Shown piece by piece: positions 24,429 to 39,741 of a stretch of 64,000 bases of DNA. Made by a program: the position numbers and the translations under genes. The notes below the pieces were generated by a model. That model saw only the letters and a list, made by a program, of their open reading frames with translations, was not told where the DNA came from and did no database searches. The DNA is from Gammaproteobacteria bacterium (GTDB lineage: Bacteria; Pseudomonadota; Gammaproteobacteria; UBA1113): assembly GCA_021773295.1 (NCBI GenBank), contig JAJFKI010000025.1:1965-65964 (forward strand), written 5' to 3'. Position 1 is the stretch's first letter. Every line of letters starts with the position of its first letter.

Positions 24429-25160
24429 ATGAAACCAATCTTACTAGGCATCAACATCGATCACGTTGCTACTATTCGACAAGCCAGAGGTACGCGTTAC
24501 CCTGATCCCATTCAAGCCGCCACAATCGCAGAGCAAGCGGGTGCAGATGGGATTACTCTGCATTTACGAGAAGACAGGCGTCATATTCAAGACCGAGATG
24601 TTTACCGTTTAAAAGACGTATTACAAACCCGGATGAATCTAGAAATGGCTATTACAGAAGAAATGCTAGGTATTGCTGTGGCAGTGAAACCAGCACATTG
24701 TTGTCTAGTGCCTGAAAAACGAGAAGAGTTAACCACCGAAGGGGGGCTAGATGTCGTTGGCAATAGGGATAGCGTAAAAGCTGCTTGCGAGCGTTTAGCT
24801 GCTGCAGGCATTGATGTCTCATTATTCATTAATGCCGATCCACAACAAATCGAAGCCGCCATTGAGGCAGGTGCCCCCACCATTGAAATTCACACAGGTC
24901 ACTATGCTGATTTAACCGATCCAGTGCAAAAAAAACAAGAATTAACCCGCATCATTAACGCCGTAGAGTTTGCTGATAGTCAAAACCTAGTTGTCAACGC
25001 CGGCCACGGCCTCCACTACCACAACACCGAAGCCATCGCCGAAATCCCCCAAATCAATGAATTAAACATCGGCCACGCCATCATCGCCCGTGCCATCTTC
25101 ACAGGCTTTGAAGTAGCTGTTAGTGAAATGAAGCAGTTGATGCTAGCGGCGAGATCATAA
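24429..25160 (+). CDS. pdxJ: pyridoxine 5'-phosphate synthase
   Basis: [16 protein letters not shown]...PDP matches the PdxJ N-terminus, at 243 aa. Confidence 0.95.
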
Positions 25161-25303
25161 GCTTTACTTAATAATCTTTATATATACTTACGTATAAGCT
25201 TGACGCATAGCCCGGCAGGGTTTTTTGTGTCAAACAAATTACATAAATTGGGATGATGAGCAATAATTTGAGTATTAATGAAAGTGATAAATGAGGTGAA
25301 AAG

Positions 25304-27703
25304 ATGGCGGCAGAAGAGGACAATGAAAGTTTACGAGCACAATTGAAAAGTGAATATGATGACATAGAAAAAAGCTTGCCGCTGGTTAGAACTAGAACTT
25401 CACGGTGGCCGATTTTTTCAGGACGTTGGCGGCCGTTTTCAAAACCTGATGAGTCAGAACCACGATTTGATGAGTCAGAACTTAAATCCAAGTTATCGAA
25501 ATTATATAACATACTCATTCGAGCTACTCAACTTAAGCCACCTTACAAAGGCTTGATTAATTTAATAGCTGAGCGTTTAAGCCAGTATGTACTTGAAGTA
25601 AAACCTTATCTGCAAGATGAATGGTTAAAGCATATTAAAGAAGAGGAGTTTTGGAAAGCTTATGAGAAGTTTCCAGAATTTTTTAAATTTAGTAGGGTCC
25701 ACGAAGAATTTATTAAACAACAGGCAAAGTTATATTATGAGCTTGTAAAAGGACTCACAGAAGATAATTATGAAAAAAGTTCTAATCTTATTTTAAAAAT
25801 GTTTAGTGATGATAACGTTATCGGCTTAGATGAGGTTTTATTAGAGTTAGCAAAGGCAGATTTAGATGACTACAACAAAGTGTTTTTTCCAGTAAACAAC
25901 AAACCGGTTGTAAACTTGTACAGAAAAATGCTTGATAAGAGATGCTTGAGCTATGGCTCTACAGCATATCGACATATTGATTATGTGAGAAGACATAGTG
26001 ATGACTGCCAACTTCTACAACGTTCTTTTTATCCCCTTAGCAACTTTGATGTTAGTGATATGGAAGCATTACAAAGCTTAGTGAAAGAATCAAATGTCGA
26101 CAAGCAGTCTCCGATGTTTAGAATAATTAATGAGATTAAGAAGGCTGGGCTCAGTAAAGATAACTATAAGAGAATAGCATTTACTGATGATGAACTTAAT
26201 TTTTTTAAAGTGGCTGCTGAATTTAATAATAAGAATGGTTTATACCAAAAACTAGAGAAAGAGATGGGTGCGCAGAAAAGGACAGAGCATCAAACAGCGA
26301 GTGCAAATCAAGGTGTCCTCATTGTTGCAGGTGCGGATTTTGACGACTGCACTGCTGACTTGACAGATGAACAAATTCCTGAAAGTTTAACAAAAGCAGA
26401 TTTTTTATACTTATCCTCAAATAGACAAGATGAGCGGTTAAACATTCTTAACTCTAAAACTCGCGAGGCCGCTAAGACAAGAGGCTTCCTATATAATGCA
26501 TTTTATGTCATGCCATTTTTTGCGGAAAAGATTAATGCAAAATTTGTTCCGCTATTAATAGCCGATGTGGAAAATCACTTAGAACCTGGTACTGCATTGC
26601 GAAAAAATTCAAAGTACACTGCAAAAAGTGAAGATCTGAAAATAAAAATACTTCTTGCACAAATGTGGCATGCAAAGATGACGCATGGACAAGAAGGGAA
26701 GGCGATGAACTTTGATTTTTATGATGACAGAGAAGATATACTTTATGTGCTCGACATTTTTTTTAAAAGTAACAAACACCTAATCCCAACAAATGTTACG
26801 CTTAGGTTGCATCAATTAGTTCCTAAGAAAAATCAATACAATATAATTAATACTGGAATTAAGGGTGAGGGAGGTGAAATATTGAATGCGGAAGGGAGTA
26901 TGACGTATGATGATGACTCTGAAAATACGCTAGTCGATGACGGAATGTTAAGATTGGATAATTTTTTGAATGATAAGTTAAAAAACATGGATAAATATAA
27001 GAAATTTAGGCGAAGTATTGATTTCATACTAAAGACTTTTAAAGATGCTTTACAAGACGAGCTACGAGATCAGGATCCAGATTTCCTTAAATACCGAAAA
27101 CAAAACAAAGAGATATATATTACCGCACTTGAAGAGATAATGAAAAAAATAAACATAGATATACTTACTGACAAAGACTATGAGTACATAAAGCAACTTC
27201 GTGATGATTTTCAATTAAAGCCCAGGCAAGCGAGGGGAGAAACGGACTTTAAAATCCATGATTTTGATAAAGAATACTTTAATCGTTTGGCAACATTACT
27301 GCATGTAGATATCAAGTTAGACCTAAACTTACCTGATCCCTCACCATCAGCAGCTGCTTCATCTTCATCACAACCCGCAGTGACTACACCAGTCGCTGCT
27401 GCTTCAAGCTATGGGGATATGCAACAAGCTTTTAATGCTAGTAAGAGCATTAGAAATGAAAGTAACAAAAAAGAATTTTCGCATGTGGATGATGCAGCTG
27501 CGGGGCGCAGCAGTGACGAACATGTTGCAGCAAGAAGCAGCGATGAAGCGAATGTAGCTGCTGCTAGCTCGGACAGTGATAAAACTAGTAGAAAAGATAA
27601 AGGAAAAGGTAAGAAAAGACAGGGTGGTTCATCGTCAGACAAAACTGAGATTGACACAAGTCGAGATGATGTGTCCGACTGGTATCCGAGAGGCCCGCAG
27701 TAA
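25304..27703 (+). CDS. large hypothetical effector-like protein; AT-rich, with a Ser/Ala-rich then basic C-terminus
   Basis: 799-aa orphan ORF ending ...PSPSAAASSSSQPAVTTPVAAASSYGDMQQAFNASKS...KDKGKGKKRQGGSSSD.... Confidence 0.7.
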   Translation: MAAEEDNESLRAQLKSEYDDIEKSLPLVRTRTSRWPIFSGRWRPFSKPDESEPRFDESELKSKLSKLYNILIRATQLKPPYKGLINLIAERLSQYVLEVKPYLQDEWLKHIKEEEFWKAYEKFPEFFKFSRVHEEFIKQQAKLYYELVKGLTEDNYEKSSNLILKMFSDDNVIGLDEVLLELAKADLDDYNKVFFPVNNKPVVNLYRKMLDKRCLSYGSTAYRHIDYVRRHSDDCQLLQRSFYPLSNFDVSDMEALQSLVKESNVDKQSPMFRIINEIKKAGLSKDNYKRIAFTDDELNFFKVAAEFNNKNGLYQKLEKEMGAQKRTEHQTASANQGVLIVAGADFDDCTADLTDEQIPESLTKADFLYLSSNRQDERLNILNSKTREAAKTRGFLYNAFYVMPFFAEKINAKFVPLLIADVENHLEPGTALRKNSKYTAKSEDLKIKILLAQMWHAKMTHGQEGKAMNFDFYDDREDILYVLDIFFKSNKHLIPTNVTLRLHQLVPKKNQYNIINTGIKGEGGEILNAEGSMTYDDDSENTLVDDGMLRLDNFLNDKLKNMDKYKKFRRSIDFILKTFKDALQDELRDQDPDFLKYRKQNKEIYITALEEIMKKINIDILTDKDYEYIKQLRDDFQLKPRQARGETDFKIHDFDKEYFNRLATLLHVDIKLDLNLPDPSPSAAASSSSQPAVTTPVAAASSYGDMQQAFNASKSIRNESNKKEFSHVDDAAAGRSSDEHVAARSSDEANVAAASSDSDKTSRKDKGKGKKRQGGSSSDKTEIDTSRDDVSDWYPRGPQ

Positions 27704-27730
27704 ATGCAGCAACAAGGCTAAGAATGATAG

Positions 27731-30493
27731 TTACTCAACCAATTGATCCCGGCTCATACTCAAAATGCGTTCGGCTTCGATTTCAAAGTGTTTGTAAAGA
27801 TTAGGCACAGCTTTTACATCCGCTTGTTTCACGGCTTGTTCTAAGGCTGCTGTTGCTTGTTGTAAGCCTGGGACACCTGAATAACACAAGGCGCCACGCA
27901 ATTTATGCAATTGTGCTTTTAAGTTTTCTAAATCCTGTTGTTGGTAAAGAGTGTTAATCAATTCAACATCATCTGGCAATTGCTCTAATAACATATCTAA
28001 TAATTCTCGTGCTAAATCTTCGCGACCATTGGCGAGTTTGATGCACTCTTGCCAATCAATCGGGCTTTCTGGTTGCTCGCTTTGTGGTGCGTTTGAAGTA
28101 TTGCCCCATTTTTCCAATAATTGGCTCAAACGATTCATAGAAATGGGCTTCATGACCCTGTCATTAATGCCCGCTGTTTGAATATCCGTTTTAAATTCGG
28201 TAAGTTCATCGGCACTCATCATGATGATCGGGGTTTCTTGATTCAAATTATCTTGCTGACGAATGTGCATCGCTGTTTCAATGCCATTCATACCCGGCAT
28301 ATTCATATCAACAAAAATTAAATCGTACGGGACTTTTTGCACGAGCTTCAATGCACGGTTACCATCTTTGGTGGTATTGACTTTATAATTCATGTTTTTC
28401 AAGGTGCGGCTCAACAAACGACGGCTGGTTTGATCATCATCGATGACCAGTAAATGTGTTTGCTCTTGGAAAATAGGTTCTAGTTTAATGGGATCGGTAA
28501 AGTGCTCATTAAATAATAACGCCGATATTTCATGATAAAATTTCTTTTGCCCGATGGGTTTAACAATACAACGGCTGGCACCTTTGGTGATGAATTGGTT
28601 AAACATGGATTGATCCACGGTGTTGAGTAACACTACAATAGGACCATGATAAACCCTCGTGGTAGGCACTAAAATTTGATGAATAAACTGTGTAATCGTA
28701 TCAGCACGGCCTGCATCTAACAGTAATAATTGAAATTGGTTTGGATTAGCCGTTTGCAGCAAACTTAGTAATTCACTCATATCCGTCACGGCTGTTAAGC
28801 CCAGGTTCCAGAGCTTAAACATTTCCTGAAAAGATTCGGTGGTGAGTGCATTTGGTTCATACAATGCGGCGTTCATATCAGAAAATCGCTTATAAGCAAA
28901 ATGGTGTTCGCCAGAAGCGATTAAATCACTGTCGACACTAAACCAAAAGGTTGATCCCTGATGTAATTTGCTCTCAACACCAATTTCACCACCCATTAGT
29001 TGCACCAGTCTTTTACTGATCAACAAACCAAGGCCCGTACCACGGTATTTTTTCTGTGCTTTATTATTAACTTGATGAAAGGCTTTAAAGATACGTTTGA
29101 GATCATCTTTTTTGATACCGATTCCTGTGTCAGTGATTTTAATAGTTAATTGACAACGGCTCTCCTCGATGGCATCTGCGGCCACTCGGATCACCACATG
29201 GCCTTCATCGGTAAACTTAATGGCGTTACTGACTAAGTTGGTAATGACTTGTTTAATTCGTAGTGGATCGCCAATTAATTTCATGGGTACGTTATGATGG
29301 ATGATTGGAATTAATTCAATGCCTTTATTATGGGCTGCTGGTGCTAATATCATTAACACTTCTTCGATACATTCGCGAATATCTAAGGGAATGTAATCTA
29401 GCTCTAAGCGTCCCGCTTCAATTTTTGAAAAGTCTAAAATGTCATTAATGACGGCTAATAAATTATCAGCAGATTTTTTCACAGTGTTTAAGTAATCACG
29501 TTGGTGAGATTTTAATTCAGTTTCCAGTAACAAATTATTAAAACCGATGATGCCATTCATCGGTGCACGGATTTCATGAGACATGTTAGCAATAAATTCT
29601 GATTTAACGCGGTTGGCTTCAGTTGCATCATTGCGTGCACGATCTAAGGCTTTATTTTCCTGTTCTAGTTTTTGTAATGCCCCGGTCAATTCAGTGGTTG
29701 CTGTAAATACTTTTTGATTCAATTCACGCTTACCCGCTTCTACTTGCTGACTTAAACGGTTAAGGCTTTGGGCTAAACGACGGATGTCTTTGTTGGGCGA
29801 TTCGGTTTTAATCGGTTTTGTGCGGCCATTTGAAAACTCACGGCTGGCTTTCATAATTGTTTGCAGAGGGCTTAGCAGCAGGCGATCAAAGTTAATCACT
29901 AAAATGATGGCAAGGGCAATGCCGAGCAATACGATAAATAGATTAATAGCAACGCTTTGGTATTCTAAAATAAGCGTGCTATTACGCGCTAAGTCCAAAG
30001 ACATCCAACCGAGAATGTCATTAGGTTTTAATGTTTGATTGCTCTGTTTTGCGCGCAGCAAGCCATCTTCAATATTCATTTGTTGCACGGAGATGGGCGC
30101 AGTAAAGTGTAAAATATTTTTTTGCTTTGTGAGATGAATATTGGGATCGCTGGTATCAATGCGTCGTTCTTGTTGTGTTAAGCGTTCAGGACCCGCATAG
30201 GCTAAGACATTACCGTTTTTATCATAAATAGTAACGGCTCTCAGAGCTGTGTTTTCAGTAGCAGCATTGGTGAGGCCCTGGAGGATGTGGATATTTTTTG
30301 TGTATAAGCCATATTTGCTGGCAGGGGTTAATTGCCGTATTAAAGAATACCCACGGTTTTGTAAATCTTTTTCTAATTCTTTGATTCTGAGCGCACTATA
30401 GTAAACCGCCATGGATATAGAGATGATGATCGTGGGCAAAAGTGCCAGGGCGATGATTTGCAGTCTTAAAGGCTGTTTTTTCACGGTGCGCAT
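27731..30493 (-). CDS. hybrid sensor histidine kinase of the BarA/GacS/LetS family (two-TM sensor, HisKA, HATPase, REC and Hpt domains)
   Basis: Motifs are the H-box FIANMSHEIRAPMNGIIGF, GTGLGL, a receiver (LLVIDDD...DLIFVDMNMPGMNG) and a C-terminal Hpt domain (HKLRGA). The protein is 920 aa. Confidence 0.85.
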   Translation of the reverse strand: MRTVKKQPLRLQIIALALLPTIIISISMAVYYSALRIKELEKDLQNRGYSLIRQLTPASKYGLYTKNIHILQGLTNAATENTALRAVTIYDKNGNVLAYAGPERLTQQERRIDTSDPNIHLTKQKNILHFTAPISVQQMNIEDGLLRAKQSNQTLKPNDILGWMSLDLARNSTLILEYQSVAINLFIVLLGIALAIILVINFDRLLLSPLQTIMKASREFSNGRTKPIKTESPNKDIRRLAQSLNRLSQQVEAGKRELNQKVFTATTELTGALQKLEQENKALDRARNDATEANRVKSEFIANMSHEIRAPMNGIIGFNNLLLETELKSHQRDYLNTVKKSADNLLAVINDILDFSKIEAGRLELDYIPLDIRECIEEVLMILAPAAHNKGIELIPIIHHNVPMKLIGDPLRIKQVITNLVSNAIKFTDEGHVVIRVAADAIEESRCQLTIKITDTGIGIKKDDLKRIFKAFHQVNNKAQKKYRGTGLGLLISKRLVQLMGGEIGVESKLHQGSTFWFSVDSDLIASGEHHFAYKRFSDMNAALYEPNALTTESFQEMFKLWNLGLTAVTDMSELLSLLQTANPNQFQLLLLDAGRADTITQFIHQILVPTTRVYHGPIVVLLNTVDQSMFNQFITKGASRCIVKPIGQKKFYHEISALLFNEHFTDPIKLEPIFQEQTHLLVIDDDQTSRRLLSRTLKNMNYKVNTTKDGNRALKLVQKVPYDLIFVDMNMPGMNGIETAMHIRQQDNLNQETPIIMMSADELTEFKTDIQTAGINDRVMKPISMNRLSQLLEKWGNTSNAPQSEQPESPIDWQECIKLANGREDLARELLDMLLEQLPDDVELINTLYQQQDLENLKAQLHKLRGALCYSGVPGLQQATAALEQAVKQADVKAVPNLYKHFEIEAERILSMSRDQLVE

Positions 30494-30655: not shown

Positions 30656-32266
30656 ATGGCAAACGACACTCCAGGGAATAATAATCACCAAGCTAGGAAT
30701 CATGTGCTAGCCAGCCAGGCCGATTTAGATCCTAAAGATAGGCCCATTGTTGATTTGGTGGAATGGTGTCAGCAGCGGGGCAATATCGTGGCGCTGCAAA
30801 GCGGTTTGATTTTGACGACAGAGCCAACAGCGCGCGATGTACAAAATTGTAAAGCGTTGTTAGTGAACAAAGGTTATAAACCTGGCAAAGTGATGGAAGC
30901 CACGCCGCAATTGATTACCCTGATGCTCGCCAATGTTGCGGATGATGATGAAGCGCAACAACAAGTCGATGTTCAAGAAGATGAAATCTCCAGCCAACAA
31001 AAACGCTTGCGGATTTTAGTGCAAGAAGCTGTCGATGCTGATGTGTCGGATATTCATATCGAAGTGCGCCCGGAGGTTGCAAAAATTCGTTTTCGTAAAT
31101 TTGGTGAAATGTATTTGCACGCCGAGTGGTTCCCCCGCTTGGGTCGCGAGTTAGCCTCTGTAGCCTTTAATAAAGAAACCGATCATGCCACCGCACACTT
31201 TAACCCCTTAATTCCACAAGATGCATCCATGCCTTTGCAAGTTTATGGTTCAGACGTGCGTTTACGTTTGGCCAGTATGCCAGCTCATGGTGGTTTTGAT
31301 GTGGTGATGCGTATTTTAGGCGTGGGTGATGATACTAAAGTCGTGACCCTAGAAGATTTAGGCTATACGCCAGAGCAAGTGTATATTATCAAGCGTGCGG
31401 TACATATGCCTCATGGGGCTGTCTTATTATCAGGGCCAACAGGATCGGGTAAAACAACGACATTAGCCAGTTGTATGCAAATGGTAAAAAGCACGCGTAA
31501 AGTGTACACCATTGAAGATCCGGTGGAAAAAGTCGTGCCAACAGTGACGCAAGTGCCGGTGAATTCCGATAAAGACGACAGAAGTTTTGCGAATTTTGGC
31601 CGCGCTGCTTTGCGGATGGATCCAGACTACATCGTCCTGGGTGAAATGCGTGATGAAGACACCGCGAATGTGATGATTCGCGCGGCGATCACCGGTCACT
31701 TAGTGTTTTCAACGGTGCACACCAACTCTGCGCCGGGGATTATCACCCGTTTAATCGATATGGGTTTATCGCCCACTATGTTAAGTGATGCCAATGTCTT
31801 AGTGGCATTGATTTTCCAACGCTTAGTGGCAACCTTGTGTCCCCATTGCAATGTGCCTCTTAAAGATGCGCCTGCGCACAAAGAACATATGGAACGCTGG
31901 CACGCTGTCTTTGGCGATAACGTAGAATATATACGCGCCCGTGGCGGTTGTAAAAAGTGCAATAACATCGGTATTGGCGGCCGCTCTGTGGTAGCTGAAG
32001 TGATTTGGGTGGATGACACTGGCCGTGAATTCATTCAAAAAGTCGATACCCTAGGATGGCAAAAGTACCTACGTAACCAAGGCTGGCAATCTTATCGCGA
32101 CCGAACCTTAGAAACCGTTATCGAAGGCAAAGTCGATCCCTTCGACGCCGAAACCTTAGTGGGCGAAATCAGTATTCACTCTGCAGAGGCCGGCTTCGAC
32201 TACACCCGCATCCGCGAAGACATGGAAAATGAAATGGCCCGCGAAGCGAAGAAGCCCCCCCAATAA
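30656..32266 (+). CDS. type IV pilus / type II secretion family assembly ATPase (GspE/PilB/BfpD class)
   Basis: Walker A LSGPTGSGKTTT, Asp and His boxes, and a tetracysteine motif CPHC...CKKC are present. 536 aa with an N-terminal extension. Confidence 0.85.
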   Translation: MANDTPGNNNHQARNHVLASQADLDPKDRPIVDLVEWCQQRGNIVALQSGLILTTEPTARDVQNCKALLVNKGYKPGKVMEATPQLITLMLANVADDDEAQQQVDVQEDEISSQQKRLRILVQEAVDADVSDIHIEVRPEVAKIRFRKFGEMYLHAEWFPRLGRELASVAFNKETDHATAHFNPLIPQDASMPLQVYGSDVRLRLASMPAHGGFDVVMRILGVGDDTKVVTLEDLGYTPEQVYIIKRAVHMPHGAVLLSGPTGSGKTTTLASCMQMVKSTRKVYTIEDPVEKVVPTVTQVPVNSDKDDRSFANFGRAALRMDPDYIVLGEMRDEDTANVMIRAAITGHLVFSTVHTNSAPGIITRLIDMGLSPTMLSDANVLVALIFQRLVATLCPHCNVPLKDAPAHKEHMERWHAVFGDNVEYIRARGGCKKCNNIGIGGRSVVAEVIWVDDTGREFIQKVDTLGWQKYLRNQGWQSYRDRTLETVIEGKVDPFDAETLVGEISIHSAEAGFDYTRIREDMENEMAREAKKPPQ

Positions 32267-32499: not shown

Positions 32500-33564
32500 A
32501 TGGCCATCGGTGGCGTTACACGGAAAAAAACCAATTACTTGCAAGGCTTGACGCATTTGCTCGATAGAATGCAATTCGACGGCGCTGAGCAACAAGCCTT
32601 TTTGGAAGATTTAGCCACACTGGTGGAAGATGGTGTGCCTGCTAATAAAGCAGTTGATGTTATTCTTAAGGTTGAAATAGGCGTCAAACTCAAAGTCGCC
32701 AAATCCATGATGAACAAAATCGCACAAGGTCGTCCCATTGCCGATGGCATGGTGGGGTGGTTTCCGGCTTACGTGGTGGAACTCATCCGCGCGGGGGAAA
32801 CCAGTGGTACCTTGACGCAAAATATCCGTGGTGCCGCGGAATCTTTAGGTCAAAAGTCTGATACGATTGCCTCCTTATTATCTTCATTAACTTATCCTTT
32901 AGTCGTTATTATTTCTGGTTGCGGCGTTGCCGTTTATATGAATCATTCTATTTTTAAACAATTTATGGCCATTAAACCCTTGGAACAGTGGCCTGAGAAT
33001 GGGCAGCAACTGGTGCACTTCGCTAACTTTCTTCAAGACTGGTGGGTCGTACTGGTGGTGAGTATCATCGCCATTGGTGTGATGATCGGCAGAATCATGT
33101 CGAATTATATTGGCACTCTGCGACCTGCCTTGGATGCGATTTTTGGGTTTACCATTTATCGCGAACTAAAAGCCGCACGCTTTATGGAAACCATGGGGCT
33201 ATTGATTTCAAACGGGGTAGTGTTTAAGCAAGCCCTGAAAATTCTACATTATCAAGCGAATCCCTACTTAGCCTTTCATTTGATGTTAATGGAGCGTAAA
33301 TTGGCGCGCGGCCGTAGTAATATTGCTGATGTCTTTGCCACGGGTATGGTGGATCCTAATGATGTGGTACGATTGAGAGCGATTGCCGATGCCAAAGGTT
33401 TTGAGCATGCCTTGATTCGTCTAGGTAAACAATCGGCCGAACGCAGTGTGAAAACCATTAAAAAGTTTGGGCGATTAATGGGTGGTGTTTTACTGGCGGT
33501 AGCCGCAGGCTTGGCTGGTTTTATGATCATGGGTATTTATTCTGTTGGTTCTTCTTTGTCATAA
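32500..33564 (+). CDS. polytopic inner-membrane platform protein (GspF/PilC family, of the short BfpE/PilR-like size)
   Basis: 354 aa with three hydrophobic transmembrane regions and two cytoplasmic domains, immediately downstream of the ATPase. Confidence 0.75.
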   Translation: MAIGGVTRKKTNYLQGLTHLLDRMQFDGAEQQAFLEDLATLVEDGVPANKAVDVILKVEIGVKLKVAKSMMNKIAQGRPIADGMVGWFPAYVVELIRAGETSGTLTQNIRGAAESLGQKSDTIASLLSSLTYPLVVIISGCGVAVYMNHSIFKQFMAIKPLEQWPENGQQLVHFANFLQDWWVVLVVSIIAIGVMIGRIMSNYIGTLRPALDAIFGFTIYRELKAARFMETMGLLISNGVVFKQALKILHYQANPYLAFHLMLMERKLARGRSNIADVFATGMVDPNDVVRLRAIADAKGFEHALIRLGKQSAERSVKTIKKFGRLMGGVLLAVAAGLAGFMIMGIYSVGSSLS

Positions 33565-33578
33565 CGAGGTGAAATGAA

Positions 33579-34106
33579 ATGCGAATCTTTAAATTGAAAC
33601 AACAACGTGGTATCGGTTTGTTGGAGTTAATGTTGTCACTGGGGATTATCGCGGTGATGTTGATCATGGCGACGAAGTATTATAATTCGACGAAGGTACA
33701 GTCAAATGTTAATACGGCAGTGCAAAATATTCAGGCGGCATATGCAGCCTGTGAGGCTTCACTGAATGATGCACCTGATGGAACGCTTTGTAAAAATACG
33801 GATACACTGTCGAAAAATGGATATTTACCCGTTGGTTTTGCTGGGGATGCTACCTCAGAAAATCCTTGGGGAGGAACCTTTACGATTGATTATAGTGGTA
33901 GCCCTAGGACCGTTAATATCTCGGTGAAAGATGTTCCAGATGTAGATTGTAATATTTTAGTAAATCGTTTACAGCAGACATTAGTGACTAGCACTTCAAA
34001 AATCACCTCTCCCGAAATGCTTAGTTGCACTGGTGATCCAGCTGTTTGTGAACCTGTTAGCACGCCATGCAAGTCAGGAACGCAGGCTGTGTCAATTAGT
34101 TATTAA
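33579..34106 (+). CDS. prepilin-type protein 1 (type IVb-like pilin)
   Basis: The leader MRIFKLKQQRG is followed by IGLLELMLSLGIIAV, with Glu at +5. The sequence shares an NPWGG motif with its paralogs and has C-terminal Cys pairs. Confidence 0.8.
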   Translation: MRIFKLKQQRGIGLLELMLSLGIIAVMLIMATKYYNSTKVQSNVNTAVQNIQAAYAACEASLNDAPDGTLCKNTDTLSKNGYLPVGFAGDATSENPWGGTFTIDYSGSPRTVNISVKDVPDVDCNILVNRLQQTLVTSTSKITSPEMLSCTGDPAVCEPVSTPCKSGTQAVSISY

Positions 34107-34643
34107 ATGAGAGTGACTTTAAAGACAAAAGATTTAGCGTGTTATCGATGCCAAGGACTAACGATGATTGAACTATTGTTAGTTCTTGGCATTGTGGCAG
34201 TAATCATCGTGATGGCAACCCGTTACTATGGTCAAGCCAAGATGGGGCAGCATGTCAATGCTGCCCTGCAAAACGTGCAAGCCATGTACGCTGCCTGTAC
34301 CAAATATCGCGCCGATGTCACCAATGCGACCTGCAGCATGGCCGTATTAACGCAACAGAATTACTTACCCGCGAATTTTGATGGAGGAAAATCAAACGTC
34401 TCAGCAGCGAATCCTTGGGGCGGAAATGCGAGTGTGGGAAAGGGTCCTGATGGCACAGTGGCAGTGACACTAACCGGTGTTCCCAATGATGATTGTTCCC
34501 GTTTAGTGAAAGATGTTGCCGCTACCATGACCACGGGGCAGTCCATCAGTAGTCCTGATTGGTCTTATGGTGAGTTTGTCAGCGGCTTATCCTGTGGCCA
34601 AGATGATGATAGTGGTTCTAGCAGCCCCACCTTTAATTTTTGA
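34107..34643 (+). CDS. prepilin-type protein 2
   Basis: A 17-aa leader ending CQG is followed by LTMIELLLVLGIVAV. NPWGG and DDC...C motifs are present. Confidence 0.8.
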   Translation: MRVTLKTKDLACYRCQGLTMIELLLVLGIVAVIIVMATRYYGQAKMGQHVNAALQNVQAMYAACTKYRADVTNATCSMAVLTQQNYLPANFDGGKSNVSAANPWGGNASVGKGPDGTVAVTLTGVPNDDCSRLVKDVAATMTTGQSISSPDWSYGEFVSGLSCGQDDDSGSSSPTFNF

Positions 34644-34651
34644 GGCGTTGT

Positions 34652-35242
34652 ATGAAAAAATTAAAAGCCATTGGCCTCATCGAGTTACTGCTCGTCTTAG
34701 TCATCATGGCAAGCTTAGTTATCCTCAGTGTTCGTTACTACGTTTCCACCAAGGCCCAAGCCCAAATCAATCAAGCCGTTTCTAATATCAAAACTCTGTA
34801 TGCCGCTTGCACCGCTTATTACGATGCTACGAAATTTGTCGTCCAAGGACAGCCGCAAAGTCAATGCGATTTACAAACCTTAGTGGATAAAAATTATTTA
34901 CCCCCTGAATTTGCCCCAGTGAAACAAACGGCTGCATCGGGTGATGGCGATGATGGTGGCGACTCCTCCACGCCCACCTTCACTAACCCAGCCAATCCAT
35001 GGGGCGGTAATGTCACCTTGGGTATCGGTTTACCGGAAAAATCATGCGGCGGATCATCTGGCATGCCGGTTGTGAGCATTGGTTTTACGGATGTCCCTAT
35101 CGACATTTGCACAGCCCTAGTCAAACGCATGGCCACGTCGATGAGTCATGGCCAATGCATCCGCGGCGCGGTGACTTGGGATGCAGGGGATGTAAGCTCA
35201 GATTTAACATGCAGTACGGGCAATCCTGACTTTAGCCTTTAG
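34652..35242 (+). CDS. prepilin-type protein 3; start ATG 34652 preferred over the track's 34640
   Basis: MKKLKA followed by IGLIELLLVLVIM; the mature N-terminus aligns with pilin 1. NPWGG and DIC...C motifs are present. Confidence 0.75.
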   Translation: MKKLKAIGLIELLLVLVIMASLVILSVRYYVSTKAQAQINQAVSNIKTLYAACTAYYDATKFVVQGQPQSQCDLQTLVDKNYLPPEFAPVKQTAASGDGDDGGDSSTPTFTNPANPWGGNVTLGIGLPEKSCGGSSGMPVVSIGFTDVPIDICTALVKRMATSMSHGQCIRGAVTWDAGDVSSDLTCSTGNPDFSL

Positions 35243-35250
35243 GAGGTATC

Positions 35251-35793
35251 ATGTTGCAACGCTCACATTATTCGCGCAAAGCGTTTACCTTAATTGAATT
35301 AATGTTAGTCATTGCAGTGATTGTCGTCATCATCATTACGGCAACGCGCCTTTATCAACAAGACAAAGAAAATGTTAAAGCCAACAATGCCGTGCAACAA
35401 GTCCTCACCATTAAAAACGCGGCCGATCACTACATCGCCAATCTATCTACCGCTGATCTGTGTAAGTTGCAGAGTAAAGAACTTTTGGATCATTTAATCA
35501 ATGTTGGCTTACTCACAGATACCTATCGCACTAGCCCTTGGGGAACACACGTGTCCGTCAAGACCGTGGGTGCGGCGCAAGAATACAACGTCTACATGTA
35601 CAGTTTACCCGCAAACGGTTGCGAAAAAGCCCGCGAGCAATTAGAAACCTTTCGCAAAATGGGCAGCGAGAGAGTGGCTGGGACAACAGAAAGTGAAATT
35701 GATAAAGTCACCTGTGATGCGGTAAAAGATCCCATCCGTTTAAGGGCGTTTATTCTTGTTAACACCGGTGCCAATACTGGCATGGGGTGTTGA
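35251..35793 (+). CDS. prepilin-type protein 4
   Basis: The leader MLQRSHYSRKA is followed by FTLIELMLVIAV, the classic FTLIE. SPWG and C...C motifs are present. Confidence 0.8.
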   Translation: MLQRSHYSRKAFTLIELMLVIAVIVVIIITATRLYQQDKENVKANNAVQQVLTIKNAADHYIANLSTADLCKLQSKELLDHLINVGLLTDTYRTSPWGTHVSVKTVGAAQEYNVYMYSLPANGCEKAREQLETFRKMGSERVAGTTESEIDKVTCDAVKDPIRLRAFILVNTGANTGMGC

Positions 35794-35804
35794 TTTGTTT
35801 ATCA

Positions 35805-35850
35805 TTATCCTAAAAACGGCCGTGTCTTAACTGCCGTTTCTAGGATTATC
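35805..35850. repeat. hairpin of the TTAACTGCCGTTTCTAGGATTAT family, a likely terminator after the pilin genes
   Basis: ATCCTAAAAACGGCCG-tgtcttaa-CTGCCGTTTCTAGGAT. Confidence 0.6.
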
Positions 35851-35910
35851 CTTGGCTATCTGGCCTTGGGCCAATAAGACAAGAGGATGTGCCGCTGGTT
35901 AGAGTCTCGT

Positions 35911-35991
35911 GTTTGGAGAAGGGGGTACCCCCAAATCAAGCGCAGGAGGCCGGAGGCCGACGGGCCATTGGGGGTACCCCCTTCTCCAAAC
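35911..35991. repeat. 22-bp perfect inverted repeat, GC-rich, with a GGAGGCC x2 spacer
   Basis: GTTTGGAGAAGGGGGTACCCCC...37 nt...GGGGGTACCCCCTTCTCCAAAC. Each arm contains the self-complementary GGGGGTACCCCC. Confidence 0.8.
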
Positions 35992-36226
35992 ATGGGACGG
36001 CAAAAATGTGTCAACAACTAAACTCACACAGGAAAAAGGAGCCGCTTGTTCCGGGTTTTAAAGTAGAACAGTTACACATTAATCGCTTGATACCTATTGA
36101 TATTTTTGCTCAGTCAGTGATAATAGAACAATTGCAATGCACGCGCGTGCGCGCGTTATTTGTGCTCATTAATCAAGGGGCCAAGGAAAGGCGCATTATA
36201 AAAAGGTTTTTGGAGTAAGTTTTCGT

Positions 36227-36823
36227 ATGAGAGCATTAATTAGACTGATGATACTGGTCATTCTAACGACCATGAGCACAATGGCCACGGCTGGCATCTA
36301 CATGGGCACCAGCTCTCAAGTGCCACACCATTACACACCGCAGCCAACCACTAGCACCATGCTACCACCTGCCTCTGCGACGTATGTCCCACCCAAAGGT
36401 TCGGGCAGAGTGGTCCATCCACCCATGACCGTAACAGCGAAACCACCTCGGCCGAGTATGCTTCCTAAACAAAAAATGTTGCCAAAACCGACCATCACTG
36501 CCACTTGTGGTAAAGGCGATTGCACACCACCCTTGCCAAAAGCGCCAGTACGTGTGGTCCATGCGCCCGTTCATCACGATTTACGTGTCAATTTATACAC
36601 CGGTTCACTGAAAAACAACGTAGAATCCATCGTCCGACGCAGCCATTGGGGGCGCGTGATTTGGACCTTGCCTTATGATTTTAAATGGGTGGGCAATATC
36701 AACATGACTGGCCCCGATGCCATGAGTATTTTAGCGCAATTATTAAAACCTTATCCCGTGCAAGCGGTTTTTTACGATAAAAACCACGTCGTTGCCATTG
36801 TAGCCAGGAGACCGAATCAATGA
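36227..36823 (+). CDS. secreted Pro-rich protein, putative secretin-associated factor (TcpQ/PilL/BfpG-like by position and architecture)
   Basis: A signal peptide is followed by a Pro-rich linker and a ~90-aa C-terminal domain. The stop overlaps the secretin start codon, indicating translational coupling. Confidence 0.45.
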   Translation: MRALIRLMILVILTTMSTMATAGIYMGTSSQVPHHYTPQPTTSTMLPPASATYVPPKGSGRVVHPPMTVTAKPPRPSMLPKQKMLPKPTITATCGKGDCTPPLPKAPVRVVHAPVHHDLRVNLYTGSLKNNVESIVRRSHWGRVIWTLPYDFKWVGNINMTGPDAMSILAQLLKPYPVQAVFYDKNHVVAIVARRPNQ

Positions 36824-38505
36824 TCATCAAAAAATGGATTACACTTGCCGTTGTCGCGGGAAGTGTCGTATTAGCAGGCTGCTATCCGGGTTATAAAGAA
36901 ACCGTAGAACAAGTGGAACACACCAAAGAAACCATCCATCAAAAAGAACAAACCTATAACCCACCACCACCACCGGTGATGGAAAAAACCGGTGCTTATG
37001 TGGATACAAGACCGGTGAGCTTGGATAGACCGCCGTATTGGTTAAAGCGCCGCGTCTCTATTCATGGTGCTAATTTACCCGTGACGTTTTACATTGAACA
37101 AGTGTTAGATGGTATCAATACCAATATCCAATTCGACAATGATCTCGATCGCGGTAAATTAATTTCTGTTAATTACCGTGGAACCATTAAGGGTGCCTTG
37201 AATCGTATTGCCACAAAATCTGATTACGCCTATCACATTAACAATAAAACCGGTGATATTACTTGGACGGGATTTGTGACCAAAACCTTTGATGTGTCTT
37301 TCTTGCCGGGGCACGCAAAGTATGAAGTTGGCGGTAAGCAAGGTGGCGGTGATTCACTGGCGTCCGGTGGCGCTGGCGGCGGTGGCAGCAGCGGCGGTGG
37401 TGATGGTGGCGTTACCATTAATTATACCGGGGTTGATTTATCCAAGAGTGATCAATACAGCAGTTTGACGGGTGATCTTTCTATTTGGAAAGACATCGAA
37501 ACTACCGTGAAAAATTTATTGTCCAAAGAAGGTAAAGTGACCGTGTCACAAGCCACGACAACGATTACGGTGCATGATCACCCAGAAAATGTAGAAGCTA
37601 TTGAACGTTTCGTTGAAAAAATGAATAAAGAATTATCGAAACAAGTGCGCATTTTAGTACAAGTGCTGAATGTGAAGCTCAGTCATAACTTTGACTATGG
37701 TATCAATTGGAATTTAGTGCGTAATTTTGGTAGTTTGAACTCACTCGCGTTGACGGGCTCATTGGCGAGTAATGCTGCCGCGACTAACTCATTATCACCT
37801 TTGGCATTAACCTTTACGGGGCACAAGGGTAAATGGGGTGGTACCGATCAAATTATCCAAGCCTTATCAAACCAAGGTAAGGTAAGTTTGGTGACACAAC
37901 CAACGGTGACCACGCTTAATAACCAAGTGGCAGAAATCACCATCCAAAATCAAAAAAGTTATATTCAAAGCGTCAGTAACAGCGTTAATGAAAACTTTTC
38001 ATCCAGTGGGGTGAACCCAGGGGTTGTAACCACGGGCTTTAACCTGTATTTATTGCCGAAGATACAGCGTGATCGTATCTTTTTACAAGTGAGTACGACG
38101 ATTTCCAACTTGCAATCCATCCGCGAAATTAATGCGGTAACGGGTGAAGTATCGAGTAATGAGGAGAGCTCGAATCAATCAGATCTGAGTAACAGTGCGA
38201 ATGATGACAGTGACTCGGGCAGTCAGTCCAATTCGAGCAATACAGGTAGTGCGGCTGGTTCATCCTCAAATAGCGCGCAAATCATCCAAATCCCAGAAAT
38301 TGATGAGCGCCGTTTCAATCAACGTAGTGTGATTCCAAATGGAGCCACTCTGATCATTGCCGGCTTTAAAACTCGCAATCATACGGCGAATGAATCTAAA
38401 TTCCTTTATACCAGTCTTTTAGGCGGTAAAGGTGGTGAAGCAGTAACGGAAGAATTAGTGTTACTCATTACGCCAGTGATCCTCAATGATGGAGACACTT
38501 ACTAA
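36820..38505 (+). CDS. lipoprotein secretin (type IVb pilus BfpB/TcpC/R64-PilN-like)
   Basis: Lipobox LAGC; secretin-domain motifs PTVTTLNNQVAEITIQ and the C-terminal ELVLLITPVIL. 561 aa. Confidence 0.8.
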   Translation: MIIKKWITLAVVAGSVVLAGCYPGYKETVEQVEHTKETIHQKEQTYNPPPPPVMEKTGAYVDTRPVSLDRPPYWLKRRVSIHGANLPVTFYIEQVLDGINTNIQFDNDLDRGKLISVNYRGTIKGALNRIATKSDYAYHINNKTGDITWTGFVTKTFDVSFLPGHAKYEVGGKQGGGDSLASGGAGGGGSSGGGDGGVTINYTGVDLSKSDQYSSLTGDLSIWKDIETTVKNLLSKEGKVTVSQATTTITVHDHPENVEAIERFVEKMNKELSKQVRILVQVLNVKLSHNFDYGINWNLVRNFGSLNSLALTGSLASNAAATNSLSPLALTFTGHKGKWGGTDQIIQALSNQGKVSLVTQPTVTTLNNQVAEITIQNQKSYIQSVSNSVNENFSSSGVNPGVVTTGFNLYLLPKIQRDRIFLQVSTTISNLQSIREINAVTGEVSSNEESSNQSDLSNSANDDSDSGSQSNSSNTGSAAGSSSNSAQIIQIPEIDERRFNQRSVIPNGATLIIAGFKTRNHTANESKFLYTSLLGGKGGEAVTEELVLLITPVILNDGDTY

Positions 38506-39741
38506 ATGCCAGCAATCGTCCGTAATGATGGAGAACAATTTGCGGTTTATACATACCGCGAATTGCTCGCCTTAAAAAAGTCATCATTACTGAAACGAGA
38601 AATCCAATTACTCAAAGAAGAACACGGTCAATATGCGCGCTTTTATTGGCAAGAAGAAGGTGATGTCGAAGCCGTTTTTTCCCGCGATCCCGGTTTTTTA
38701 TTAGCAGAGTGTGCCTGGGAGCACTTTGGTAGTCCTGATGATTTAATTTATTGTGAAGTGATGCCCGGCGAGCAAGTAGCGATTTTGATCGTGATTCGCG
38801 CTGGGGCAGTCTATTTAGATGCCGAAGTGTCGGTTGATAATCTCTATGATGAATTCGTCCCCTTAGCTACGGGCGAAAATCAATATGATATTTATATCTA
38901 TGGTGATGCGCCCTTAGCGGAAGTAGCTGCAGAAGGCGTGTTCGCTTTTGATGATGCTCATGTGAAATCTTTTACCCATTTAGAAGACTCTGCCTTTTCA
39001 AAATTACCCTTGAATGAAGATTTTCGCCTGTTACTTGTTGATAAAGCCATTGCCGATTTAAAACTGAAAGAAGTGAGCTTAGTGCCTTTATTGGTGATCA
39101 TACTCGGCATAGGGGGGATTGGGTATTTTGCCTATCAAATGATGAAACCACCACCGCCACCGCCACCGAAACCCATTATCGTCAATCCATACGCCCAATA
39201 CGAACAACAGTTAGCCTCACCGTCACCAGAAAATATTTTAAACGCAGTGGCGAAACAGGTACAAGTGGTGAGTATTATTCCTGGCTGGCAGGCGACTAAT
39301 ATGAAATATGCCAATAATACCTTGGATGTGACTTTAACCACGCCCATTCAAGCATCAGGGGATTTTTTAGTGCATTGGGCGAAGAAGAATAATTTAGACT
39401 TAGGTATTCAATCTAATAGCGCGTCGGTAAAAATTTCTATTGATGTACCCTCAAGACCTAAACCAACGACGATTTATAACCTTAGGCAAATCTTAGCAGA
39501 AATCTTTGATGATACGCATTTATTTTTACCGGGCTCAACTGTCACCTTTTCATCACCGACGGCACAAGGTAAGTTTTCATCGAGTACAGTGACGGTGAAT
39601 TTTAACAATCTGGCTTCCCCTATTCTAAACTTATATGGTAGGGTATTAAAAGATAAACCGGTGGTATTAGAGAGCATGACATTCAACCTACAAGGGGGGC
39701 TGTTAAGCGGTCAAATGAAGTTAACGGTATTAGGGGCATAA
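38506..39741 (+). CDS. bitopic inner-membrane assembly protein (BfpC/R64-PilO/GspL-like architecture)
   Basis: A ~200-aa cytoplasmic domain, a single transmembrane helix (LVPLLVIILGIGGIGYFAY), a PPPPPPPKP stretch and a ~190-aa periplasmic domain. Confidence 0.5.
   Translation: MPAIVRNDGEQFAVYTYRELLALKKSSLLKREIQLLKEEHGQYARFYWQEEGDVEAVFSRDPGFLLAECAWEHFGSPDDLIYCEVMPGEQVAILIVIRAGAVYLDAEVSVDNLYDEFVPLATGENQYDIYIYGDAPLAEVAAEGVFAFDDAHVKSFTHLEDSAFSKLPLNEDFRLLLVDKAIADLKLKEVSLVPLLVIILGIGGIGYFAYQMMKPPPPPPPKPIIVNPYAQYEQQLASPSPENILNAVAKQVQVVSIIPGWQATNMKYANNTLDVTLTTPIQASGDFLVHWAKKNNLDLGIQSNSASVKISIDVPSRPKPTTIYNLRQILAEIFDDTHLFLPGSTVTFSSPTAQGKFSSSTVTVNFNNLASPILNLYGRVLKDKPVVLESMTFNLQGGLLSGQMKLTVLGA

What the first reader, a model, noticed from the sequence alone, without database searches (positions are those of the whole stretch)
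33579..35793. Four tandem paralogous prepilins with divergent C-terminal domains
The four adjacent genes (175, 178, 200 and 180 aa) share the N-terminal helix and an NPWGG/SPWG motif. Each has a D-region-like Cys pair. They differ strongly in their central and C-terminal regions; pilin 3 carries a Gly/Asp-rich insert, SGDGDDGGDSS. Leaders vary in length (11, 17, 8-12 and 11 aa). Pilins 1 and 3 align as (G/A)-IGL(L/I)E. Two of the four therefore appear to have Ala rather than Gly at -1, which is atypical for prepilin peptidase substrates. These could be one major plus three minor pilins or alternative antigenic or adhesive variants. Tandem quadruplication with no intervening terminator until the hairpin at 35805 suggests co-expression.
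Basis: partly seen in the sequence, partly recalled or inferred. Interest (0 to 1): 0.6.

Follow-up and report, generated by a model that had tools for sequence, protein, structure and literature searches.

The report
Four type IVb pilin genes in tandem
Four neighbouring genes in an uncultured Legionella-relative encode related subunits of a hair-like surface fibre (a type IVb pilus); this is a normal feature of a pilus locus shared by many relatives, and the odd alanine at the cutting site of two subunits also recurs across that family.

Summary
Four intact, same-strand prepilin genes lie at 33579-35793. Each has a basic leader, Glu at +5, a hydrophobic helix, an (N/S)PWG motif and an aligned Cys pair. 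Pilins 3 and 4 have Ala at -1.

They are PilS/bundlin/TcpA-type type IVb pilins. They sit inside a chromosomal pilus operon: ATPase, platform, four pilins, TcpQ-like protein, PilN-type secretin, PilO-like, PilP. The host is an uncultured Legionellales bacterium.

This is not a recent quadruplication. The genes are 22-39% identical. Three pilin types already exist in the nearest relative, and only pilins 2 and 3 look like a lineage-specific duplicate.

In 71 related loci, arrays of 1-8 prepilins in this same position are the rule. About 8% of those pilins carry Ala at -1. Gly and Ala alternate within orthologous groups, so Ala is a tolerated family variant, not decay.

No prepilin peptidase is encoded in the window or in the fetched flanks of up to 10 kb.

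Best reading: pilin 1 is the major subunit and pilins 2-4 are low-abundance or accessory subunits. They are co-transcribed and matured by an unlinked PilD-type peptidase. Roles and processing are inferred, not shown.

Verdict: a new member of a known kind, of modest interest.

The parts
30656..32266 (+). Pilus assembly ATPase (GspE/PilB family), first gene of the pilin-containing operon
   Evidence: Pfam T2SSE, E = 2e-85. 53-76% identical in related loci, always just upstream of the platform gene.
32500..33564 (+). Inner-membrane platform protein (GspF/PilC/TcpE family); ends 14 nt before pilin 1
   Evidence: Pfam T2SSF. 236 homologues, all from uncultured Legionellales, Coxiellaceae or Gammaproteobacteria.
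33579..34106 (+). Prepilin 1 (175 aa, leader 11 aa, Gly at -1): predicted major pilin
   Evidence: Pfam PilS 22.9 bits, above the cutoff of 22. The mature N-terminus IGLLELMLSLGIIAVMLIMATKYY matches the family consensus at 20 of 24 positions. It is the first gene after the platform gene. 33% identical to IncI2 plasmid PilS over 80% of its length. AlphaFold pLDDT 83; best PDB fold match is TcpA.
34107..34643 (+). Prepilin 2 (178 aa, leader 17 aa, Gly at -1); its start codon directly abuts the pilin 1 stop codon
   Evidence: Pfam PilS 40.6 bits and N_methyl 23.4 bits. Reciprocal best hit with L003_1624. The public annotation starts at an internal Met and misses the leader (P0159).
34652..35242 (+). 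Prepilin 3 (196 aa from ATG, leader MKKLKA, Ala at -1) with a Gly/Asp-rich insert before NPWGG
   Evidence: Pfam PilS 18.8 bits, below the cutoff. Closest to P2 and L003_1624. Relatives P0156, P0157 and P0158 share the GQCI motif and G/S/D-rich inserts, with Gly or Ala at -1. GAGG lies 6 nt upstream of the ATG.
35251..35793 (+). Prepilin 4 (180 aa, leader 11 aa, Ala at -1, Phe at +1): the most divergent copy and the likeliest minor pilin
   Evidence: Pfam N_methyl 22.9 bits, no PilS hit. 22% identical to P1. No word-based homologue other than itself. AlphaFold pLDDT 83; best fold match is TcpA, TM 0.50-0.53. It has the strongest Shine-Dalgarno sequence, AGGAGG.
35807..35846 (+).
   Evidence: -19.2 kcal/mol, z = -6.6. 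Not called by the terminator scan.
35904..35998 (.). 31-nt inverted repeat in the 433-nt gap between the pilin operon and the secretin operon
   Evidence: 94% complementary. -74.8 kcal/mol, z = -9.9. Unique in the window and absent from related loci.
36227..36823 (+). TcpQ-like protein, first gene of the second half of the pilus locus
   Evidence: Pfam TcpQ 23 bits, below the cutoff of 27. Conserved in this position in most related loci.
36820..38505 (+). PilN-type type IVb secretin with a sequence ending LAGC near the N-terminus that looks like a lipoprotein signal
   Evidence: TIGR02520 257 bits (cutoff 287.65). Pfam Secretin and Secretin_N_2.
38506..39741 (+). PilO-like protein (411 aa), assigned by position
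   Evidence: No Pfam or NCBIfam hit. Conserved after the secretin in related loci. IncI2 plasmids carry pilO2 in the same place.
39747..40457 (+). PilP-family pilus biogenesis protein
   Evidence: TIGR03021 35.9 bits, above the cutoff of 34.65.

Best explanation
**What it is.** The four genes are functional subunit genes of a chromosomal type IVb pilus, in the same pilin family as R64/IncI PilS, bundlin and TcpA. The host is an uncultured Legionellales bacterium.

**How it most likely works.**
- The genes are transcribed together with the assembly ATPase and platform genes.
- Each product inserts into the inner membrane by its hydrophobic N-terminal helix.
- A prepilin peptidase encoded elsewhere in the genome removes the short basic leader after Gly (P1, P2) or Ala (P3, P4).
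- The ATPase/platform motor then polymerises the subunits through the PilN-type secretin.
- Pilin 1 is most likely the major filament subunit.
- Pilins 2 and 3 are a duplicated second pilin type. Pilin 4 is a third, most divergent type. All three are most likely low-abundance subunits that prime assembly and/or decorate the tip.

**Shown:** gene integrity, family membership, fold, operon packing, conservation of the array, and recurrence of Ala at -1 in relatives.

**Inferred:** expression, cleavage, and which pilin plays which role.
For: **Family and fold**
- Pfam PilS and N_methyl hits.
- A family profile hits BfpA (2.6e-6), TcpA (4.6e-6), CofA and PilS in the PDB.
- AlphaFold models of P1 and P4 (pLDDT 83) match TcpA best, with probability 1.0.
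- P1 is 33% identical to IncI2 PilS, which also carries NPWGG.

**Machine context**
- ATPase, platform, TcpQ-like protein, PilN-type secretin and PilP flank the pilins.
- The same gene order recurs in most of the 71 related loci. Close relatives share the pdxJ and sensor-kinase neighbours, so the locus is chromosomal and vertically inherited.

**Intactness**
- All four keep Glu at +5, the PWG motif and the Cys pair.
- Codon usage falls within the range of housekeeping genes in the window.
- P1, P3 and P4 have Shine-Dalgarno sequences. P2 abuts the P1 stop codon.

**P1 as the major pilin**
- It is first in the array, and its N-terminus matches the strongly conserved family consensus at 20 of 24 positions. 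P2-P4 match at 12-14 of 24.

**Ala at -1 is tolerated**
- 16 of about 200 family pilins, in 11 loci, have Ala at -1.
- Gly and Ala alternate within orthologous groups: P3 and L003_1624 have Ala while P0156 and P0157 have Gly; P0163 has Ala while P0171 has Gly; P4 has Ala while L003_2166 has Gly.
- PMC3244431 states that cleavage occurs at Gly or Ala.

**Precedents**
- One major pilin plus three small minor pilins occurs in a type IVb pilus: BfpA with BfpI, BfpJ and BfpK (PMC4810605).
- A minor pilin initiates assembly of TCP (PMC5207764).
- Of two tandem pilins in L. pneumophila, only one behaves as the major pilin (PMC13170364).
Against: - There are no expression or proteomic data, and cleavage after Ala was not tested.
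- P4 has the strongest ribosome-binding site, which is not what a low-abundance subunit would be expected to have.
- No promoter or attenuator sets P1 apart from the other three.
- In several relatives the consensus major-type pilin is itself duplicated two to four times, for example in L012. Several co-equal major pilins are therefore possible.
- No large TcpB-, CofB- or PilV-like minor pilin is present here, although many relatives have pilins of 260-350 aa.
- No peptidase gene was found in the window or in the fetched flanks of up to 10 kb of relatives. The maturation step therefore rests on an enzyme that was not seen.
Confidence: 0.55

Rival explanations
1. The genes encode alternative or co-polymerising major pilins. 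One machine builds different or mixed filaments whose exposed C-terminal domains differ, giving adhesive or antigenic variety. This would achieve with tandem paralogues what the R64 shufflon achieves for PilV.
For: - All four are similar in size (175-196 aa) and have the same fold.
- Divergence is concentrated in the exposed C-terminal part.
- Across relatives the array is the variable module, with 1-8 pilins and 2.2-8.7 kb between conserved genes.
- Within-locus paralogues often cluster together, which indicates repeated lineage-specific duplication.
Against: - The N-terminal helices that must pack in one filament core differ considerably among the four (36-54% identity). Only P1 keeps the family consensus.
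- No switching device was found: no recombinase, no shufflon-like repeats and no internal terminators.
- The copies are old, not recently diversified.
Confidence: 0.25
2. The locus works mainly as a secretion device. A short pseudopilus-like fibre exports a substrate, as TCP exports TcpF. The extra pilins would then be tip or adaptor subunits for the cargo.
For: - Type IVb pili such as TCP secrete proteins through their minor pilin (PMC10120004, listed).
- The ATPase and platform proteins score best against GspE and GspF models.
Against: - No candidate secreted substrate gene lies in the cluster.
- The pilins belong to PilS/bundlin families, not to GspG-K equivalogs.
Confidence: 0.1
3. The two pilins with Ala at -1 are processed poorly or not at all. 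They would remain membrane-anchored and act as assembly regulators or anchors rather than fibre subunits.
For: - Gly at -1 is the overwhelming norm (186 of about 206 motif hits here).
- From my own knowledge, not checked here: mutagenesis of P. aeruginosa pilin by Strom and Lory (1991) found that Ala was the only tolerated substitute and reduced cleavage.
- Pilins with Ala at -1 in this family have unusually short leaders: 7 of 16 are 6 aa, against a median of 11 aa.
Against: - Gly and Ala interchange among orthologues with no other change to the signal peptide.
- Glu at +5 and the basic residue at -2 are retained in P3 and P4.
Confidence: 0.07
4. Some of the copies are decaying duplicates with no function.
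For: - P4 has no close homologue.
- P3 and P4 fall below or miss the Pfam PilS threshold.
Against: - All four ORFs are full length and keep every family-invariant residue.
- P1 and P4, the two modelled, give confident pilin folds.
- Codon usage is normal for this genome and ribosome-binding sites are good.
- Counterparts of each type exist in other species.
Confidence: 0.03

Closest known systems
R64/IncI1-IncI2 thin pilus (PilL-PilV) and its chromosomal relatives (Salmonella Typhi SPI-7 pil, PAPI-1)
   Same: - The pilins are PilS-family, with the NPWGG motif and a C-terminal Cys pair.
- P1 is 33% identical to IncI2 PilS.
- Both systems have a PilN-type secretin, a PilO-sized protein, PilP, one ATPase and one platform protein.
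   Different: - The order here is ATPase, platform and pilins, followed by TcpQ-like, secretin, PilO and PilP. It is not pilL to pilV.
- There is no PilT transglycosylase, no PilU peptidase, no PilV adhesin and no shufflon.
- There are four PilS-like genes instead of one.
- The locus is chromosomal, syntenic and not on a conjugative element.
- The secretin scores below the PilN equivalog cutoff.
Bundle-forming pilus of EPEC (BfpA plus minor pilins BfpI, BfpJ and BfpK)
   Same: - It is a type IVb system with one major pilin and three small pilin-like proteins (PMC4810605).
- The family profile's best PDB sequence hit is bundlin, 1zwt.
- Several relatives carry precomputed Pfam Bundlin hits.
   Different: - From my own knowledge of the bfp operon, not checked here: the minor pilin genes are not adjacent to bfpA, and the operon encodes its own peptidase (BfpP) and a retraction ATPase (BfpF). 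Neither is present here.
- Here all four genes are mutually homologous PilS-like proteins.
Toxin-coregulated pilus of Vibrio cholerae (TcpA and TcpB)
   Same: - TcpA is the best structural match for the P1 and P4 models: 8uhf, 3hrv and 1oqv, probability 1.0, TM 0.39-0.53.
- A TcpQ-like gene precedes the secretin.
- There is no retraction ATPase in the cluster.
   Different: - TCP has one large minor pilin, TcpB, which initiates assembly and retraction (PMC5207764). No large minor pilin is present here.
- From my own knowledge, not checked here: TCP encodes its own peptidase, TcpJ, and the TcpA leader is 25 aa. Leaders here are 6-17 aa.
Tandem type IVa pilins PilA1 and PilA2 of Legionella pneumophila
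   Same: Adjacent paralogous pilin genes in the same bacterial order. [quoted passage not shown]
   Different: That is a type IVa system with two genes. The present family was recovered only from uncultured lineages in the scan of species-representative genomes.

Membership tests
Type IV pilin (class III signal peptide substrate) | Short basic leader ending in Gly (rarely Ala) at -1, Glu at +5, then about 20 hydrophobic residues | tested here: met
   All four show the motif. P1 and P2 have Gly at -1; P3 and P4 have Ala. Pfam N_methyl passes its cutoff for P2 (23.4) and P4 (22.9), falls just below for P1 (20.5 against 21.2), and gives no hit for P3.
Type IV pilin (class III signal peptide substrate) | Actual cleavage and N-methylation by a prepilin peptidase | not testable with these tools
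   This needs protein chemistry. No A24 peptidase gene lies in the window or in the fetched flanks of up to 10 kb of 71 relatives (regex; tblastn with IncI2 PilU; Pfam).
Type IVb pilins (PilS, bundlin, TcpA, CofA) | Sequence match to a type IVb pilin family model | tested here: met
   PF08805 PilS: P1 22.9 and P2 40.6 bits (cutoff 22), P3 18.8, P4 none. The family profile hits BfpA at 2.6e-6, TcpA at 4.6e-6, CofA at 2.9e-3 and PilS at 5.4e-3.
Type IVb pilins (PilS, bundlin, TcpA, CofA) | Type IVb globular fold | tested here: met
   AlphaFold models of P1 and P4 (pLDDT 83.0 and 83.3) match TcpA best, with probability 1.0 and TM 0.39-0.53. P2 and P3 were not modelled.
Type IVb pilins (PilS, bundlin, TcpA, CofA) | Long leader (about 15-30 aa) and a residue other than Phe at +1 | tested here: inconclusive
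   Leaders are 11, 17, 6 and 11 aa, which is short for type IVb. Residues at +1 are Ile, Leu, Ile and Phe. The median family leader is 11 aa.
Type IVb pilins (PilS, bundlin, TcpA, CofA) | C-terminal disulfide-bounded D-region | tested here: inconclusive
   An aligned, nearly family-invariant Cys pair is present in all four. Formation of the bond was not tested.
R64/IncI thin-pilus system (PilL-PilV) | PilN-family lipoprotein secretin | tested here: inconclusive
   TIGR02520 is the best hit at 257 bits but falls below the curated cutoff of 287.65. A sequence ending LAGC lies near the N-terminus and looks like a lipoprotein signal.
R64/IncI thin-pilus system (PilL-PilV) | Dedicated peptidase PilU, transglycosylase PilT, and PilV adhesin with shufflon | tested here: not met
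   None is present in the cluster. Compare the IncI2 operon. No shufflon-like repeats were found.
R64/IncI thin-pilus system (PilL-PilV) | PilP-family protein | tested here: met
   TIGR03021 scores 35.9 bits against a cutoff of 34.65.

The most novel reading that the evidence does not exclude
Between two conserved halves of a vertically inherited type IVb pilus locus, Legionellales and Coxiellales bacteria may keep a fast-turnover 'pilin cassette' of 1-8 tandem PilS paralogues. This cassette would set which protist hosts or surfaces the cell can bind. The Gly-to-Ala change at -1, together with a shortened 6-aa leader, would slow maturation and so fix the stoichiometry of accessory subunits in a co-transcribed array.
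Probability: 0.12. Interest if true: 0.6.

Novelty: new member of a known kind. Interest (0 to 1): 0.3.

Why it matters
The locus shows that many uncultured Legionella and Coxiella relatives carry a chromosomal type IVb pilus of the PilS/bundlin/TcpA kind. I found no paper describing it in this order. The number and sequence of its pilin genes is the most variable part of the locus.

If these bacteria use the pilus for first contact with host cells, the array is a natural place to look for host-range determinants.

The family also offers a set of natural substrates with Ala at -1, paired with orthologues that have Gly. These could be used to test prepilin peptidase specificity.

For genome annotation, it flags one mis-called start: the public annotation of pilin 2 lacks its leader. 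It also shows that standard models miss half of the array, P3 and P4.

Tried and rejected
- **Exact-sequence look-up of the platform protein.** Nothing on record, so the source contig could not be pulled.
- **Word-based homologue search with P4.** It returned only P4 itself. No orthologue series could be built for it.
- **Search for a prepilin peptidase.** A GxGDxK motif search, tblastn with IncI2 PilU and Pfam scans of 40 window ORFs found none. The rest of the genome could not be searched.
- **Shufflon-like or phase-variation devices.** Only short, chance-level repeats lie inside the array. The 21-nt direct repeat is simply the NPWGG codons.
- **Terminator reading of the 35805 hairpin.** The structure is real but lacks a U-tract.
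- **Rfam on the gap after P4.** Only sub-threshold generic hairpin hits to miRNA models.
- **dN/dS among the paralogues.** Not attempted. At 22-39% protein identity synonymous sites are saturated, and no close strain exists; each 100% hit is a single sequence on one contig.
- **Recent horizontal acquisition.** Rejected. Codon usage matches housekeeping genes and the flanking synteny is shared with relatives.
Full report
**1. What is in the sequence**

Four ORFs sit head to tail on the + strand:
- 33579-34106 (175 aa)
- 34107-34643 (178 aa)
- 34652-35242 (196 aa from ATG; 200 aa from a TTG at 34640)
- 35251-35793 (180 aa)

Spacing is very tight. Pilin 1 starts 14 nt after the upstream gene. The pilin 2 ATG directly follows the pilin 1 TAA. 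Gaps of 8 nt separate pilins 2/3 and 3/4.

Each ORF begins with a class III signal peptide:
- P1: MRIFKLKQQRG|IGLLE
- P2: MRVTLKTKDLACYRCQG|LTMIE
- P3: MKKLKA|IGLIE
- P4: MLQRSHYSRKA|FTLIE

Glu is at +5 in all four, followed by at least 12 residues that are neither charged nor strongly polar. Ala at -1 in P3 and P4 is therefore real.

For P3 the ATG start fits best. GAGG lies 6 nt upstream, and homologues have the same short leader (MKQKA|, MKIFKHQKA|).

A motif scan of the whole window finds only these four, plus two false positives inside long unrelated ORFs.

The alignment gives 39, 38 and 22% identity to P1. Invariant residues are Glu5, the P-W-G of the (N/S)PWG motif, and three Cys. Identity falls along the protein: 36-54% in the N-terminal helix and 7-34% in the C-terminal part. 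The aligned Cys pair sits at P1 124/150, P2 130/163, P3 153/187 and P4 124/155. It is nearly invariant across the wider family. The Gly/Asp-rich insert of P3 is present.

**2. What the genes are**
- *Sequence models.* Pfam PilS (PF08805) passes its cutoff for P1 and P2, is just below it for P3, and is absent for P4. N_methyl passes for P2 and P4.
- *Profile against the PDB.* A profile of P1-P4 plus 32 database relatives hits bundlin (1zwt, 2.6e-6), TcpA (8uhf, 4.6e-6), CofA (9iuf) and S. Typhi PilS (1q5f).
- *Structure.* AlphaFold models of P1 and of the outlier P4 are confident (pLDDT 83.0 and 83.3). Both match TcpA best in the PDB, with probability 1.0 and TM 0.39-0.53.
- *Plasmid relatives.* P1 is 33% identical over 80% of its length to the 'type 4 pilus major pilin' (PilS) of IncI2 plasmids. 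That protein also carries NPWGG and a C-terminal Cys pair.

All four are type IVb pilins of the PilS/bundlin/TcpA kind.

**3. Context**

The array sits inside a pilus machine locus:

| Coordinates | Product |
|---|---|
| 30656-32266 | GspE/PilB-type ATPase |
| 32500-33564 | GspF/PilC-type platform |
| 33579-35793 | the four pilins |
| 35794-36226 | 433-nt gap |
| 36227-36823 | TcpQ-like protein |
| 36820-38505 | PilN-type secretin |
| 38506-39741 | 411-aa protein in the PilO position |
| 39747-40457 | PilP-family protein |

The rest of the window is ordinary chromosome: trmD, rimM, lepB, rnc, era, recO, pdxJ, a hybrid sensor kinase, queA, tgt and secDF. Codon usage of the pilin genes lies within the range of these genes.

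No A24 prepilin peptidase, lytic transglycosylase, PilV-like adhesin or second ATPase was found in the locus.

No terminator-like site lies inside the array. A much larger inverted repeat follows at 35904-35998 (-74.8 kcal/mol). The layout is most simply two operons, with the pilins at the end of the first.

**4. Relatives**

Homologues of the platform protein come only from uncultured Legionellales, Coxiellaceae and unclassified Gammaproteobacteria. A scan of species-representative genomes returned 71 loci, all from genomes of uncultured bacteria.

*Synteny.* The gene order ATPase, platform, pilin array, TcpQ-like, secretin, PilO-like, PilP-like recurs in most of them. Loci L005 and L012 also share the pdxJ and sensor-kinase neighbours, and several others share the sensor kinase. 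The locus is therefore old and vertically inherited in this clade.

*Array size.* The space between the platform and TcpQ-like genes ranges from about 2.2 to 8.7 kb. My motif scan finds 1-8 prepilins per locus there: 24 loci with two, 21 with three, 7 with four and 10 with five to eight. These are lower bounds from a regular expression. Multi-pilin arrays at this position are the family norm.

*Duplication history.* A rough neighbour-joining tree shows within-locus paralogues often clustering together, as in L012, L005, L006, L043, L001, L011, L016 and L067. This indicates repeated lineage-specific duplication.

*Orthology with the nearest relative.* L003 has 71% platform identity and three pilins. 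Reciprocal BLAST pairs them as follows:
- P1 with L003_956.
- P2 with L003_1624, with P3 as a co-orthologue.
- P4 with L003_2166, weakly.

The window therefore holds three old pilin types plus one extra duplication (P2/P3). It is not a recent quadruplication.

**5. Ala at -1**

After removing four false positives, 16 of about 200 family pilins have Ala at -1. They occur in 11 loci, including the window. Their leaders are short: 6 aa in 7 of 16, against a median of 11 aa for Gly pilins.

Gly and Ala alternate inside orthologous groups:
- In the P3 type, marked by a shared GQCI motif and G/S/D-rich inserts, P3 and L003_1624 (= P0158) have Ala. P0156 and P0157 have Gly.
- P0163 (MKQKA|IGLIE) and P0171 (…RLKG|VGLLE) share the same C-terminus but differ at -1.
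- P4 has Ala, while L003_2166 has Gly.

This pattern argues that whichever peptidase serves this family accepts both residues. The literature already allows 'glycine or alanine' (PMC3244431). From my own knowledge, not re-checked here, Strom and Lory (1991) found Ala to be the only tolerated substitute for Gly at -1 in P. aeruginosa pilin.

Prepilin peptidases are often unlinked and shared between systems (bioRxiv 10.1101/576694). Absence of the gene from the locus is therefore not unusual. Actual cleavage remains untested.

**6. Most likely working**

*Shown:*
- four intact type IVb prepilin genes packed in one operon with the motor genes;
- family-wide conservation of such arrays.

*Inferred:*
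- co-transcription;
- maturation by an unlinked PilD-type enzyme;
- polymerisation through the PilN-type secretin.

*Roles.* P1 is first in the array. It keeps the strongly conserved family N-terminus (IGLLELMLSLAIIAILLxMATRYY) at 20 of 24 positions, against 12-14 of 24 for P2-P4. That helix is the part that must pack in the filament core, so P1 is the best candidate for the major subunit. P2-P4 would then be low-abundance subunits.

*Precedents:*
- BfpA with BfpI, BfpJ and BfpK (PMC4810605).
- TcpB-initiated assembly (PMC5207764).
- L. pneumophila PilA1/PilA2, where only one of two tandem pilins is the major one (PMC13170364).

*Counter-indications:*
- P4 has the best ribosome-binding site.
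- No separate promoter marks P1.
- Some relatives duplicate the major-type pilin itself.

The main rival is therefore several co-equal or alternative major pilins, and it stays open.

*My confidence:*
- about 0.9 that these are functional type IVb pilin genes;
- about 0.5 for the major/minor assignment.

**7. Comparison with known systems**

The parts are all of known kinds. The system differs from the R64/IncI thin pilus in three ways: gene order; the lack of PilT, PilU, PilV and a shufflon; and the number of PilS-like genes.

From my own knowledge, not checked here, it differs from TCP, CFA/III and BFP in lacking a large minor pilin and a dedicated peptidase.

Literature searches found no description of a type IVb pilus in Legionellales. 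That library is incomplete, so this is absence of evidence only.

**8. Verdict**

I rate the finding a new member of a known kind and of modest interest. Its main value is the family-wide picture: a variable pilin array, and natural Gly/Ala pairs at -1.

Noticed in passing
window 35904-35998: A 31-nt inverted repeat, 94% complementary, folds to a hairpin of -74.8 kcal/mol in the gap between the pilin operon and the secretin operon. It is a single copy in the window, is absent from all 72 fetched loci, and has no Rfam family. It could be a strong terminator or insulator, or the remnant of a small mobile element.
   Followed up: partly
window 34107-34643: The public protein for pilin 2 (P0159, 159 aa) starts at the internal Met of MIELLL. 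The deposited annotation therefore misses the 17-aa leader and the cleavage site.
   Followed up: partly
L001-L071, just downstream of the platform gene (about 11000 onward in most loci): The pilin array is the variable module of an otherwise syntenic locus, with 1-8 prepilins and 2.2-8.7 kb. There are two architecture classes: arrays of small PilS-like pilins (135-230 aa), sometimes with larger ones, and loci with exactly two large pilins (about 260-290 aa and about 315-350 aa).
   Followed up: partly
L012 11033-13331: Four tandem pilins have identical mature N-termini (IGLLELMLSLAIIALLLVMATRYYS...) but different C-terminal domains. This suggests very recent duplication or gene conversion of the helix-coding part.
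   Followed up: no
window 24429-30493; L005, L012, L014: pdxJ and a 920-aa hybrid sensor kinase (sCache, HAMP, HisKA, HATPase, REC, Hpt) lie next to the pilus locus, with the kinase divergently transcribed. L005 and L012 share both neighbours, and L014 and several other loci share the kinase. The kinase could regulate the locus, or it may simply be conserved synteny.
   Followed up: no
window 25304-27703: A 799-aa ORF between pdxJ and the sensor kinase has no Pfam domain.
   Followed up: no
window 41100-46800: A small accessory-looking patch lies downstream of the pilus locus. It holds a MarR-type HTH protein, a HipA N-terminal-domain-only ORF overlapping an HTH gene, tRNA-Leu(caa) at 45120-45206, and a DUF4143/AAA_14 ATPase.
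   Followed up: no
window 58738-59184 and 61320-62441: A Sel1-repeat protein and a patatin-like phospholipase. As I recall, both domain types are common among Legionellales effector-like proteins.
   Followed up: no
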